A stretch of DNA of 18,284 nt, from positions 1 through 18,284 of the IMG/VR virus record IMGVR_UViG_2534681673_000003; one strand, 5' to 3'. Positions 2,246 to 3,652 of this stretch are shown piece by piece. Position 1 is the stretch's first letter; every line of letters begins with the position of its first letter. Source of the stretch: a virus. Its lineage: Duplodnaviria; Heunggongvirae; Uroviricota; Caudoviricetes. A program made the translations under genes and the position numbers. The notes below the pieces were generated by a model, which made no database searches, was not told where the DNA came from, and was given only the letters and a program-made list of their open reading frames with translations.

Positions 2246-3304
2246 TCATCCGTTCTGACTGACTAAATCCTGAACTTCCCTGACCGTCTGCTCAAAACGT
2301 TCAGTCTCCAGCTCAACGCCAGTTGCACGACGCCCCAGCGCCATCGCTGCTTTGACTGTCGAACCTGACCCCATGAAGAAATCTGCAACCAGGTCACCCG
2401 GACGACTGCTCGCACTGATTATCTGCTGCAGCATTTCTGCCGGTTTTTCGCACGGATGTTTCCCGGGATAGTACTGCACCGGTTTATGCGTCCACACATC
2501 CGTGTACGGCACCTGCGCCGTCACGCCAAAATACCGCCGCAGATGCTTATATTCACTCTGCAGTTCCGCATACTGCCGGTTCAGTGAAGTATACGTCTCC
2601 AGCAGCTGGTGGTGAGGCTTTTCCAGTTCACCCCGCTGATGCTTCTCTTCTGCCACCCGGGCAAACAGCGCCTGTAATTTCAGATAATCACTTTCGTCCG
2701 GCAGCTGCCACTGACTGGCACTGAACCAGTGCGACACCATGTTTTTCTTTCCTGTGGCATCCACTATCTGTTTTGCCGTTATCCCCAGGGCAGCGCGCGC
2801 ATCACGAAAGTAAGCAATCAGCGGAGCCATCACATGCTGTTTCAGTGCCCTGCCCTTCGCCTCATACCCGGCATCTTTCGGACGATACGGCCCCTGATAA
2901 TGTTCCGCGAACAGAATGCGCTCTGTGGCGGGGAAATACGCCCTCAGGCTTTCCTTGTTGCACCCGTTCCAGCGTCCGGACGGCTTTGCCCAGATAATAT
3001 GGTTCAGCACACTGAAGCGTTCACACATCATGATTTCAATGTCAGATGCCAGGCGATGGCCACAGAACAGGTAAAGACTTCCGGCAGGTTTCAGCACCCG
3101 CCAGAACTGCGCCAGACACTGGTCCAGCCACTTCAGGTAATCATCGTCGCCCTTCCACTGGTTATCCCAGCCCTCGGGCTTCACTTTAAAGTATGGCGGG
3201 TCTGTGACTATCAGATCGACAGAGTTTTCCGGTAAGGTCTGGATAAATTCCAGGCAATCAGCGTTGATTAACTCACAACTGGATATTTTTACAGTATTAA
3301 GCAT
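2246..3304 (-). CDS. DNA methyltransferase, beta-class N6-adenine/N4-cytosine type (orphan, no adjacent restriction gene)
   Basis: 352-aa ORF with catalytic motif IV DLIVTDPPYF near the N-terminus and AdoMet motif I FFMGSGST near the C-terminus. This motif order defines the beta group. The tRNA cluster starts 40 nt downstream on the same strand. Confidence 0.85.
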   Translation of the reverse strand: MLNTVKISSCELINADCLEFIQTLPENSVDLIVTDPPYFKVKPEGWDNQWKGDDDYLKWLDQCLAQFWRVLKPAGSLYLFCGHRLASDIEIMMCERFSVLNHIIWAKPSGRWNGCNKESLRAYFPATERILFAEHYQGPYRPKDAGYEAKGRALKQHVMAPLIAYFRDARAALGITAKQIVDATGKKNMVSHWFSASQWQLPDESDYLKLQALFARVAEEKHQRGELEKPHHQLLETYTSLNRQYAELQSEYKHLRRYFGVTAQVPYTDVWTHKPVQYYPGKHPCEKPAEMLQQIISASSRPGDLVADFFMGSGSTVKAAMALGRRATGVELETERFEQTVREVQDLVSQNG

Positions 3305-3440
3305 GGATCATTAAGCCTGTCTCTGATAGGCTCATTCTGCTTTTGCGCAAAGCAGTGGGCCTGAGGTTTGCTTGTGACCCCAACGCATGAGCAGATGGCT
3401 GGTGAGTGCCCCTAACACCCACCAGCCGCCCATTTACCAC

Positions 3441-3468
3441 AAATAAAAAAGCCTTCAGGACTGAAGGC
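3441..3468 (-). terminator. Intrinsic terminator after small ORF, upstream of methyltransferase
   Basis: Inverted repeat gccttcag/ctgaaggc (3451-3468); on the minus strand it is followed by UUUUUUAUUU (plus-strand A run 3441-3450). It overlaps the stop of the 3455-3652 ORF. Confidence 0.5.
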
Positions 3469-3652
3469 GTCTGTAACAACCGAACTGATAGTCTGCCAGA
3501 CCCGCCATAACAAGCTGGGTCAGTATTAACTGACAGCGTTCGCGTGAAAGGTAAGTATTCTGTGCAATCTCCCCGACTGTCGCCGGTGCGGTGGCACTTA
3601 ATTCATTAAACACCACTCTGGCGGTTTCGGTCATATCCTGCTGTTTCAGCAT
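3455..3652 (-). CDS. Small hypothetical protein (65 aa), possible helix-turn-helix fold
   Basis: ATG at 3652 with SD-like AAGGGA 8 nt upstream; sequence MLKQQDMTETARVVFNELSATAPATVGEIAQNTYLSRERCQLILTQLVMAGLADYQFG... The longer 92-aa ORF-track version begins with GTG upstream of it. Lies between tR' and the methyltransferase. Confidence 0.4.
   Translation of the reverse strand: MLKQQDMTETARVVFNELSATAPATVGEIAQNTYLSRERCQLILTQLVMAGLADYQFGCYRRLQS

What the first reader, a model, noticed from the sequence alone, without database searches (positions are those of the whole stretch)
2246..3652. Cargo inserted between the Q-dependent promoter and the tRNA/stx genes: small ORF plus orphan methyltransferase, each followed by a terminator
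In the 933W arrangement as I remember it, pR'/tR' is followed almost directly by the tRNAs and stx. Here about 1.5 kb intervenes, carrying a 65-aa HTH-like ORF (3455-3652), an intrinsic terminator (3441-3468) and a beta-class DNA methyltransferase (2246-3304) with no restriction partner in the window. The methyltransferase would be co-induced with toxin and lysis genes, which fits an anti-restriction or self-modification role during lytic growth. The extra terminator adds a further Q-dependent checkpoint before stx.
Basis: partly seen in the sequence, partly recalled or inferred. Interest (0 to 1): 0.45.

Follow-up and report, generated by a model that had tools for sequence, protein, structure and literature searches.

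The report
Known phage methylase, unrecognised RNA leader
The stretch between the late promoter and the Shiga toxin genes is a common, already documented phage module whose methyltransferase is a close relative of M.EcoGII, the enzyme that methylates every adenine; the one new thing is a conserved folded RNA just upstream of that gene that no database or paper I could search describes.

Summary
The features are real and at the stated coordinates, on the minus strand: a 65-aa winged-helix-like ORF (3455-3652), an intrinsic terminator (3468-3441) and a beta-class methyltransferase (2246-3304). No restriction gene lies in the window.

The interpretation needs correcting.
- The methyltransferase is at least 93% identical to M.EcoGII, the characterised non-specific adenine methyltransferase that is silent in lysogens. 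No target motif should be expected.
- The module is not an insertion. It occurs in 2091 of 5426 complete E. coli genomes, in phiP27, SfV, mEp460, Stx2c and many Stx2a phages. In non-Stx phages it sits directly before the lysis genes.
- 933W keeps the last 111 nt of the same gene, so 933W is the deletion derivative.
- The methyltransferase gene has no terminator of its own.

The new observation is the 135-nt "spacer" upstream of the methyltransferase start (3305-3440). It is a conserved structured RNA, a three-way junction followed by further hairpins. It is better conserved than the coding sequence and supported by covariation. It lies immediately upstream of this gene (or a deleted remnant) in all 181 copies examined, from Escherichia to Vibrio phages. 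It has no Rfam match. It is probably a cis-acting regulator of this toxic enzyme.

The parts
3879..4700 (-). Late antiterminator Q (273 aa, quuQ/Qin type)
   Evidence: PF03589 Antiterm E 1.1e-53. phrog_127 'anti-termination protein Q-like'. 32% identical to lambda Q, with a roughly 66-aa insertion rich in CxxC motifs.
3831..3873 (-). Late promoter pR' (lambda type): -35 TTGATT at 3873-3868, TG-extended -10 TAAATT at 3851-3846, pause-inducing AACGATGGG at 3839-3831, inferred transcription start near 3839
   Evidence: Read from the sequence. Lambda has the same TAAATT, a 6-nt spacer and AACGATGGG. That this arrangement is a sigma-70-dependent pause site used for Q loading comes from established knowledge of lambda pR', not from a test here.
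3774..3798 (-). tR', the first intrinsic terminator; predicts a terminated transcript of about 65 nt in the lysogen
   Evidence: ACCCGTCGCCAGGCGGGT plus TTTTTTA. The hairpin is conserved with covarying stems in SfV, mEp460 and phiP27, and SfV annotates a terminator at the equivalent place.
3455..3652 (-). 65-aa small ORF, probable winged-helix protein of unknown function
   Evidence: phrog_331, E 5.8e-37, function unknown. 339 homologues, named 'TrmB family transcriptional regulator' by NCBI. tblastn finds intact homologues just upstream of the methyltransferase in 61 of the 92 loci held at that point and in 99 of 112 viral copies. AlphaFold2 gives three helices at pLDDT 72.
3441..3468 (-). 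Second intrinsic terminator, overlapping the stop codon of the small ORF
   Evidence: GCCTTCAGTCCTGAAGGC plus TTTTTTATTT. A hairpin is present at this place in relatives, but the T-run is often degenerate.
3305..3440 (-). Conserved structured RNA leader of the methyltransferase gene. P1 (UGGGC/GCCCA) encloses the P2 hairpin and P3, forming a three-way junction. This is followed by the P4 hairpin, the GAGCCUAUCA segment, a variable P5 hairpin and UGAUCC just before the AUG.
   Evidence: - Nearly invariant in 7 phage loci.
- The covariance model gives 60 hits in 91 sources, one per locus, each upstream of the methyltransferase gene on its sense strand.
- On the MAFFT alignment, 90.4% of cells are paired against 26-45% in slid controls, 13 of 26 pairs change on both sides, and 0 of 500 shuffles reach the observed values.
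- On the model-fitted alignment, 88.3% are paired and 20 of 28 pairs change on both sides.
- Mean pairwise identity is 81%, against 72% for the coding sequence.
- Folding energy is -61.7 kcal/mol, z = -4.06.
- 121 of 121 viral copies precede this methyltransferase gene or a deleted remnant of it.
- No Rfam match.
2246..3304 (-). Orphan beta-class N6-adenine DNA methyltransferase of the M.EcoGII family (352 aa)
   Evidence: PF01555, E 1.1e-43. 325 of 349 residues identical to M.EcoGII; the reference was machine-read from a PDF, so this is a lower bound. DPPY and FMGSG motifs are intact. The nearest solved structures are beta-class methyltransferases.
2246..2356 (-). The 3' 111 nt of the methyltransferase gene, the only part of the module retained in 933W-type Stx2 phages
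   Evidence: About 250 phage records match only this stretch, at 92-97% identity. In phage PA2 it is annotated as a 50-aa 'putative DNA methylase'. The alignment with 933W shows homology beginning abruptly at 2356, just after a 933W terminator.
1954..2205 (-). Three tRNA genes: ileZ-like CAT, an argN position with anticodon TTG, and argO TCT
   Evidence: ARAGORN and Rfam tRNA hits.
1921..1940 (-). Terminator-like hairpin between the tRNAs and stx2A
   Evidence: GGGCTCGCTTTTGCGGGCCT plus TTTTTATATC. 933W annotates a terminator at the equivalent place.
622..1862 (-). stx2A (903-1862) and stx2B (622-891), the next protein genes of the late transcript
   Evidence: PF00161 RIP and PF02258 SLT_beta. 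Annotated as Stx2a in the identical genome.

Best explanation
This is the promoter-proximal part of a lambdoid late operon, in its common and probably ancestral form.

The order on the minus strand is:
- Q
- pR' (lambda type)
- tR'
- a 65-aa winged-helix ORF
- a second terminator
- a 135-nt structured RNA leader
- an M.EcoGII-family methyltransferase
- tRNAs
- stx2AB
- lysis genes

In the lysogen, pR' transcripts stop at tR'. Any read-through stops at the second terminator, so the enzyme stays silent. M.EcoGII methylates adenine in any sequence context and harms cells when expressed constitutively.

After induction, Q-modified RNA polymerase reads through both terminators. The methyltransferase is then made together with the tRNAs, Stx2 and the lysis proteins. 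It heavily methylates replicating phage DNA at adenines. Progeny should therefore resist many adenine-methylation-sensitive restriction systems in the next host.

The leader RNA is inferred to add a post-transcriptional control on translation of this enzyme.

The tRNAs and stx are the later additions between the methyltransferase and the lysis genes. 933W-type phages lost Q, the small ORF, the leader and most of the methyltransferase gene when a different Q-pR' module was recombined in.

Shown here: gene identities, the promoter and terminator motifs, the distribution of the module, the 933W remnant, and the conservation and covariation of the leader.
From the literature: non-specific activity, silence in lysogens and toxicity of M.EcoGII.
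Inferred: Q-dependence in this phage, the anti-restriction benefit, and the regulatory role of the leader.
For: - Methyltransferase identity.
- M.EcoGII properties: non-specific, unexpressed in its native lysogen, unstable and slow-growing clones on constitutive expression, and phage 1720a-02 named as a carrier (PMC5778455). Phage 1720a-02 is 97% identical in DNA to window 1860-3802.
- Lambda-type Q, pR' and tR'.
- Same module order in phiP27, SfV, mEp460, Flotzy, a Providencia phage and phiKO2. In the non-Stx phages SfV, mEp460, Flotzy and a Vibrio phage the lysis genes follow directly; in the Stx2e phage phiP27 the tRNAs and stx2e lie in between.
- Frequency: 2091 of 5426 E. coli genomes, up to 10 copies per genome.
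- 933W remnant and breakpoint.
- Leader RNA.
Against: - No expression, methylation or restriction data exist for this prophage.
- The consensus promoter scan found no sigma-70 site in 1850-4000. It also missed pR' itself, so internal promoters cannot be excluded.
- 24 residues differ from M.EcoGII, several of them in the target-recognition region, so specificity is inferred and not shown.
- The M.EcoGII reference sequence was machine-read from a PDF and contains errors.
- Heavy m6A should make the DNA a target for methylation-dependent nucleases, so the net benefit is host-dependent.
- Constrained folding did not show consistently which leader fold exposes the start codon.
Confidence: 0.8

Rival explanations
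1. The 1.5 kb is cargo inserted into a 933W-like arrangement. It carries a sequence-specific orphan methyltransferase with a discoverable motif, and its extra terminator adds a Q-dependent checkpoint before stx.
For: 933W does have only about 430 nt between pR' and the tRNAs. The second terminator is real.
Against: - 933W-type phages carry the 3' 111 nt of this gene, the mark of a deletion or replacement.
- The module is widespread in phages without stx, where it abuts the lysis genes.
- The enzyme is at least 93% identical to a non-specific methyltransferase.
- Q-modified polymerase ignores terminators in general, so a second one adds tightness against leak rather than a separate decision point.
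Confidence: 0.07
2. The main role of the methyltransferase is not anti-restriction. It might methylate RNA (M.EcoGII methylates RNA and single-stranded DNA in vitro) or host DNA late in infection, to shut down the host or to tune phage late expression or packaging.
For: M.EcoGII acts on single-stranded DNA, DNA-RNA hybrids and RNA (PMC5778455). It is toxic when expressed. Its position as the first protein gene of the lysis operon is conserved from Escherichia to Vibrio phages.
Against: RNA activity is about 100-fold lower than DNA activity (V0 0.12 against 11.12; PMC11551740 Table S3). 933W-type phages and L105 lost the gene and 933W is a viable phage, so the gene is dispensable.
Confidence: 0.12
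3. The conserved 135 nt is not a functional RNA. It is conserved as a DNA-level recombination linker between phage modules, as a promoter or operator, or as a short leader-peptide ORF starting at the invariant ATG of AAATGGGC.
For: Lambdoid phages do share conserved module boundaries. The stretch contains an ATG (TTG or GTG in three loci) that opens a 33-34 codon ORF in the window and in SfV, both ending at the same TGA (sequence).
Against: - Pairing is kept through G-U to G-C or A-U changes that work only on the sense strand, and through double changes. One pair reads CG 29, AU 11, UA 10, UG 6.
- In the majority form the ORF hits TAG at codon 8, in GUGUUGUAGCAC.
- Indels are not multiples of three.
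- Conservation holds across genera where the flanking genes have diverged to 62-80%.
Confidence: 0.08
4. The 65-aa winged-helix protein is the dedicated controller of the methyltransferase, like the C proteins of restriction-modification systems. Alternatively it is a partner that binds m6A-modified DNA or blocks methylation-dependent nucleases.
For: It lies just upstream of the methyltransferase gene in 61 of the 92 loci held at that point and in 99 of 112 viral copies. It has a winged-helix-like fold. Winged-helix domains are known m6A sensors (titles; not tested here).
Against: About 20 loci, plus Flotzy and phiKO2, keep the leader and the methyltransferase without it. Its C-terminal third is replaced in mEp460 and Stx2c phages. 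The Foldseek matches are not significant and do not include DpnI-type readers.
Confidence: 0.2

Closest known systems
M.EcoGII and M.EcoGI of E. coli O104:H4 C227-11 (Murray et al. 2018, PMC5778455)
   Same: Beta-class motif order, nearly the same length (352 against 349 aa), at least 93% identity, prophage-borne, orphan. The paper names phage 1720a-02 as carrying a very similar enzyme, and that phage is 97% identical in DNA to this window.
   Different: 24 or fewer substitutions and three extra C-terminal residues. Activity of this allele is untested. The passages of that paper read here do not mention the Q/pR'/tR' context ('antitermin' has no occurrence in its text) or the leader RNA.
phiP27 L23-L24, SfV orf47-orf48 and mEp460 gp52-gp53 (annotated phage genomes)
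   Same: Same order: small ORF, spacer, methyltransferase, downstream of Q. In phiP27 it is followed by tRNAs and stx2e. DNA identity is 76-88%.
   Different: Different Q alleles. phiP27 has a GIY-YIG gene between Q and the small ORF. In SfV and mEp460 the lysis genes follow directly.
933W pR'-tR'-tRNA-stx2 region
   Same: The tRNAs, stx2AB and the last 111 nt of the methyltransferase gene are homologous at 92-97%.
   Different: A different Q (144-aa family), its own pR', qut and terminators. No small ORF, no leader RNA and no functional methyltransferase.
Lambda pR' / 6S RNA / tR' with Q
   Same: Q homologue, identical -10 and pause-inducing element at identical spacing, and a terminator downstream.
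   Different: The terminated RNA is about 65 nt rather than 194 nt. The sequence between -35 and -10, where lambda Q binds, differs. Q carries a zinc-finger-rich insertion.
Gifsy-1 antQ-isrK-orf45-anrP (Hershko-Shalev et al. 2016, PMC4825925)
   Same: A Q-type gene, a short terminated RNA, a small ORF after the terminator, then a potentially harmful cargo gene whose translation is controlled at the RNA level.
   Different: No sequence similarity: no isrK hit in the window, and only weak sub-threshold isrJ hits in two relatives. The cargo is an anti-repressor, and control there is by the short RNA acting in trans plus translational coupling.
Phage anti-restriction methyltransferases (T2/T4 Dam, P1 Dmt; from general knowledge)
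   Same: Phage-encoded orphan adenine methyltransferases expressed during lytic growth that protect progeny DNA.
   Different: Those enzymes are sequence-specific or nearly so and belong to other classes. None is known to me to have a structured RNA leader.

Membership tests
Beta-class amino (N6-A/N4-C) DNA methyltransferases (PF01555) | Pfam N6_N4_Mtase match above the gathering score | tested here: met
   E 1.1e-43, 150.2 bits against a cut-off of 26.7, covering aa 29-340.
Beta-class amino (N6-A/N4-C) DNA methyltransferases (PF01555) | Motif order: catalytic DPPY at the N-terminus, a central target-recognition region, FxGxG at the C-terminus | tested here: met
   DPPY at aa 34-37 and FFMGSGST at aa 309-316. 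Split matches to RsrI, CcrM and MboIIA.
M.EcoGII family (non-specific adenine methyltransferase) | Close full-length sequence identity to M.EcoGII, including the target-recognition region (aa 160-237) | tested here: met
   325 of 349 residues identical over the whole length. The reference was machine-read, so the true value is slightly higher.
M.EcoGII family (non-specific adenine methyltransferase) | Methylates adenine in any sequence context | not testable with these tools
   Needs LC-MS or SMRT/nanopore analysis of DNA methylated by this allele.
M.EcoGII family (non-specific adenine methyltransferase) | Transcriptionally silent in the lysogen | not testable with these tools
   Only the two upstream terminators are seen. 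No expression data.
Lambda-type Q-antiterminated late operon | Q protein of the lambda Q family | tested here: met
   PF03589, E 1.1e-53. 32% identity to lambda Q, E 7e-41.
Lambda-type Q-antiterminated late operon | Promoter directly after Q, with a -10-like pause-inducing element in the initial transcribed region | tested here: met
   TAAATT, 6 nt, then AACGATGGG, identical to lambda.
Lambda-type Q-antiterminated late operon | Intrinsic terminator shortly downstream (tR') | tested here: met
   3798-3774.
Lambda-type Q-antiterminated late operon | Q binds its site at pR' and causes read-through | not testable with these tools
   Needs in vitro transcription or reporter assays.
Type II restriction-modification system | Cognate restriction endonuclease gene next to the methyltransferase | tested here: not met
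   The neighbours are tRNAs, the small winged-helix ORF and Q. No endonuclease of that kind is found in the window.
Moron (autonomous promoter-gene-terminator insertion) | Own promoter upstream and terminator downstream of the gene | tested here: inconclusive
   The small ORF has a terminator after it, but no promoter was found. The methyltransferase has neither. The promoter scan is insensitive and missed pR'.
Any described RNA family (Rfam 15), for the leader at 3305-3440 | Covariance-model match | tested here: not met
   No hit at E <= 1 in the window or in six diverse relatives, and none at gathering thresholds.
Riboswitch or RNA switch, for the leader | Conserved structured aptamer-like core supported by covariation | tested here: met
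   A three-way junction with invariant joining segments. 13-20 pairs change on both sides.
Riboswitch or RNA switch, for the leader | Mutually exclusive alternative pairing that occludes the start site | tested here: inconclusive
   The alternative helix AUGGGC/GCUCAU is 98% paired, but only through one-sided changes. The anti-start-site helix is 88% paired with weak covariation. The two folds lie within 0-6 kcal/mol, and start-site accessibility is not consistent between sequences.
Riboswitch or RNA switch, for the leader | Binds a specific ligand or factor | not testable with these tools
   Needs in-line probing or SHAPE with SAM, SAH, the methyltransferase or the 65-aa protein.

The most novel reading that the evidence does not exclude
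The 135-nt leader (3305-3440) is a previously undescribed class of cis-regulatory RNA dedicated to M.EcoGII-type methyltransferases. It would switch between a three-way-junction fold and a fold in which GGUCAcAAGC pairs with GCUUacUGAUC just before the AUG. The switch would gate translation of a promiscuous, toxic enzyme in response to a factor still to be found: SAM or SAH, the enzyme itself, the co-encoded winged-helix protein, or the speed of Q-modified polymerase.
Probability: 0.4. Interest if true: 0.65.

Novelty: new member of a known kind. Interest (0 to 1): 0.45.

Why it matters
As originally stated, the finding is confirmatory. The module is standard in many Stx and non-Stx lambdoid prophages, and its enzyme family is characterised and sold as a reagent.

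Two corrections matter for anyone working on Stx phages.
- The gene directly upstream of the tRNAs and stx2 in this class of phage encodes a non-specific adenine methyltransferase, so induced phage DNA should be heavily methylated at adenines. This affects host range, restriction escape, sensitivity to methylation-dependent defence, and nanopore or SMRT analysis of induced cultures.
- 933W is a deletion derivative and not the reference state.

The leader RNA, if it is a regulator, would explain how thousands of genomes tolerate a toxic enzyme. It would add a widespread RNA family, present in about 40% of complete E. coli genomes. It would also be of practical use for controlled expression of M.EcoGII-type enzymes.

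Tried and rejected
- Rfam searches of the region, of six diverse relatives and of the whole window found nothing for the leader or the pR'-tR' RNA.
- Weak isrJ-like hits upstream of the leader in two relatives (E 0.1-0.4, below threshold) were not pursued.
- The prophage anti-sRNAs AsxR and AgvB lie 3' of the cargo genes, not here (PMC4104026).
- A leader-peptide reading of the conserved ATG was rejected: there is a stop at codon 8 in the majority form.
- Foldseek of the small-ORF model gave only non-significant winged-helix matches. NCBIfam gave no family for it.
- The sigma-70 scan found no promoter, not even pR', so it says nothing about internal promoters.
- Constrained folding, used to ask which fold frees the start codon, gave no consistent direction. 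One script run also stopped on an error for the last sequences.
- The M.EcoGII sequence could be obtained only as machine-read text from a supplement. I could not retrieve its native locus in C227-11 to confirm the same upstream architecture there.
- Papers on the Q-stx 'pR' region' and a review of Stx phages do not mention the methyltransferase (PMC6266700 and PMC8065619).
- No paper in the library holds the leader sequence strings.
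Full report
**What the window is.** The window is an Stx2a prophage read on its minus strand. It is 100% identical over the finding to E. coli JNE151685.

The gene order from right to left is:
- integrase, excisionase and exonuclease
- immunity and replication genes, hok/sok, DUF968 and rusA
- Q at 3879-4700
- the finding itself
- three tRNAs at 2205-1954
- stx2A at 1862-903 and stx2B at 891-622
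- an iraM-like ORF at 1-324

**Checking the observation.** The three features exist where stated.
- ORF 2246-3304 is a PF01555 methyltransferase (E 1.1e-43). DPPY is at aa 34-37 and FMGSG near aa 310, which is the beta-class order. The nearest solved structures are beta-class enzymes: RsrI, CcrM and MboIIA.
- ORF 3455-3652 encodes 65 aa. It belongs to phrog_331, of unknown function. Its support as a winged helix is modest: TrmB E 0.007, a three-helix model at pLDDT 72, and winged-helix regulators as the best but non-significant Foldseek hits.
- The terminator at 3468-3441 is found by the scan, as is a stronger one at 3798-3774.
- No restriction gene is present in the window.
- The title's claim that each gene is followed by a terminator fails for the methyltransferase. 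Nothing terminator-like lies between its stop codon and the tRNAs.

**The control region.**
- Directly after the Q stop codon lies TTGATT, then 16 nt, then TGgTAAATT, then AGCCCT, then AACGATGGG.
- Lambda pR' reads TAAATT, TGACTC, AACGATGGG, the same -10 and the same element at the same spacing.
- Q is a lambda-family protein (PF03589, E 1e-53; 32% identical to lambda Q).
- From established knowledge of lambda, this element causes the sigma-70-dependent pause at which Q loads.
- The terminator at 3798-3774 is therefore tR', and it predicts a terminated RNA of about 65 nt.

**What the methyltransferase is.**
- A methylome paper on O111 STEC pointed to prophage orphans M.EcoGI and M.EcoGII as 'nonspecific'.
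- Murray et al. (PMC5778455) show that M.EcoGII methylates adenine in any context. They also show that it is not expressed in its native lysogen, and that clones expressing it constitutively grew slowly and were unstable. They add that a very similar enzyme is in phage 1720a-02.
- Phage 1720a-02 is 97% identical in DNA to window 1860-3802.
- Using the M.EcoGII sequence printed in a supplement of PMC11551740, the window protein is 325/349 identical. The printed text has recognition errors, shown by comparison with real homologues, so this is a lower bound.

**Is it inserted cargo? No.**
- The 1488-nt module is present at 80% coverage or more in 2091 of 5426 complete E. coli genomes, with up to 10 copies per genome, and in 52 phage records.
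- It has the same order in phiP27 (L23-L24, followed by tRNAs and stx2e) and in SfV (orf47-orf48).
- The same order is seen in mEp460, Flotzy and a Providencia phage.
- phiKO2 has an annotated late promoter and terminator, then the methyltransferase gene, without the small ORF. A Vibrio phage has the gene directly before its lysis genes.
- In the non-Stx phages SfV, mEp460, Flotzy and the Vibrio phage, the methyltransferase gene is followed directly by holin and endolysin. The tRNAs and stx are therefore the later additions.
- About 250 records of 933W-type phages match only window 2246-2356, the last 111 nt of the gene, at 92-97% identity. In PA2 this is annotated as a 50-aa 'putative DNA methylase'.
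- The alignment with 933W shows homology starting abruptly at 2356, just after a 933W terminator.
- 933W is therefore a replacement or deletion derivative.

**The unexpected part: the leader RNA.**
- Aligning the Q-to-methyltransferase interval of seven phages showed that the 135 nt before the methyltransferase ATG are almost invariant. The small ORF and the coding sequence diverge, or are replaced.
- A scan of one genome per species returned 80 loci at 62-99% protein identity. Most carry the element at the same place, with strongly covarying stems.
- RNAalifold and manual inspection give the structure:
  - P1 (UGGGC/GCCCA) encloses a long variable hairpin P2 and a helix P3 (UUCGCU..UG with CA..AGCGAA), forming a three-way junction.
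  - A hairpin P4 follows, then the conserved segment GAGCCUAUCA and a variable hairpin P5.
  - UGAUCY comes last, immediately before the AUG.
- A covariance model found 60 copies in 91 sources, one per locus. All lie upstream of the methyltransferase gene on its sense strand, including phiKO2 and the Vibrio phage; in the Vibrio phage a 38-aa annotated ORF lies in between. There was none in 933W and no second copy in the window.
- Pair counts:
  - MAFFT alignment, not fitted to the model: 90.4% paired against 26-45% for slid partners, 13 of 26 pairs changed on both sides, 0 of 500 shuffles reaching the observed values.
  - Model-fitted alignment: 88.3% paired and 20 of 28 pairs.
  - One P3 pair reads CG 29, AU 11, UA 10, UG 6.
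  - One genome changes P1 from G-C to A-U.
- G-U pairs are frequent, which places the structure on the sense RNA.
- The element is more conserved than the coding sequence: mean pairwise identity 81% against 72%, in 225 of 253 pairs.
- It folds well below shuffled controls (z = -4.06).
- A pattern scan of viral contigs found 121 copies. In 120 of them, codon 1 of the methyltransferase follows 23 nt after the pattern. The last copy is an internal deletion that fuses the leader to the C-terminal part of the gene.
- Rfam has no match. The RefSeq annotation of the identical genome lists nothing between the small ORF and the methyltransferase gene. No paper in the library holds the sequence.

**How the leader might work (inference).**
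- The invariant AUGGGC can also pair with GCUCAU, which extends P2. This helix is 98% paired, through one-sided changes only.
- The 3' strand of P3, GGUCAcAAGC, is complementary to GCUUacUGAUC just before the AUG. This helix is 88% paired against 27-46% for slid partners, but its covariation is weak.
- The two folds differ by 0-6 kcal/mol.
- This looks like a switch that hides or frees the start site. However, constrained folding did not show consistently which fold exposes the AUG, and no signal is known.
- Xenorhabdus and Photorhabdus carry only a shorter form, P2 with its flanks.

**The small ORF.**
- It is linked to the methyltransferase in 61 of the 92 loci held at that point and in 99 of 112 viral copies.
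- It is absent from about 20 loci that keep the leader, and its C-terminus is exchangeable.
- It is therefore an accessory part of the module. A role as controller or as a reader of methylated DNA is possible but unsupported.

**Verdict.**
- The protein-coding content and the arrangement are already known.
- The 'insertion' and 'target motif' ideas are wrong.
- The structured leader RNA is the one element that appears to be new.

Noticed in passing
window 2044-2120 (-): The middle tRNA, argN in 933W and Stx2_EH1910 with anticodon TCG, has anticodon TTG here, plus two changes in the T-arm. ARAGORN calls it tRNA-Gln here, and RefSeq annotates tRNA-Gln at this position in the identical genome JNE151685. 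The change hits the central anticodon base, which I recall as an arginyl-tRNA synthetase identity element, so charging and decoding are uncertain.
   Followed up: partly
window 335-547 (-): Strong Rfam match to sRNA family STnc100 (158 bits against a gathering score of 47) immediately downstream of stx2B. This is the region where Tree et al. describe convergent prophage sRNAs.
   Followed up: no
window 6723-6897 (-): A sok antitoxin RNA (113 bits) next to an annotated Hok/Gef gene, that is, a hok/sok module inside the prophage early-right region.
   Followed up: no
window 3879-4700 (-): Q is 273 aa against 207 aa in lambda. The extra roughly 66 aa form an insertion with several CxxC motifs and give weak DnaJ-type zinc-finger matches.
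   Followed up: no
window 1-324 (+): An ORF on the opposite strand downstream of stx2B is annotated as anti-adapter protein IraM (an RpoS stabiliser) in identical and related records.
   Followed up: no
L105 2145-2500; L005 (933W) 1845-1956: The methyltransferase gene has been destroyed independently at least twice: by an internal deletion that fuses the leader to the C-terminal coding part (L105), and by a 5' replacement that leaves 111 nt (933W type). This suggests recurrent loss of the gene.
   Followed up: partly
L012 2773-3022 (Vibrio phage vB_Va_Val-yong3): The leader model hits at 48 bits upstream of a 38-aa ORF annotated 'DNA-directed RNA polymerase subunit P', which lies between the leader and the methyltransferase gene. 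There the GUCAUA segment is complementary to UAUGAC, which covers the start codon of that small ORF.
   Followed up: partly
L059-L092 (Xenorhabdus and Photorhabdus loci), about 1420-1500: These loci carry a shorter upstream element that keeps GAAAUGGRCGG, a hairpin and CCAUUCGCC but lacks P3, the 3' strand of P1 and P4. The full model does not detect it at E <= 0.01.
   Followed up: no
window 17166-18284 (+) and beyond (L094): The prophage integrase gene ends the window. In the identical genome it lies next to potC, which indicates the integration site.
   Followed up: no
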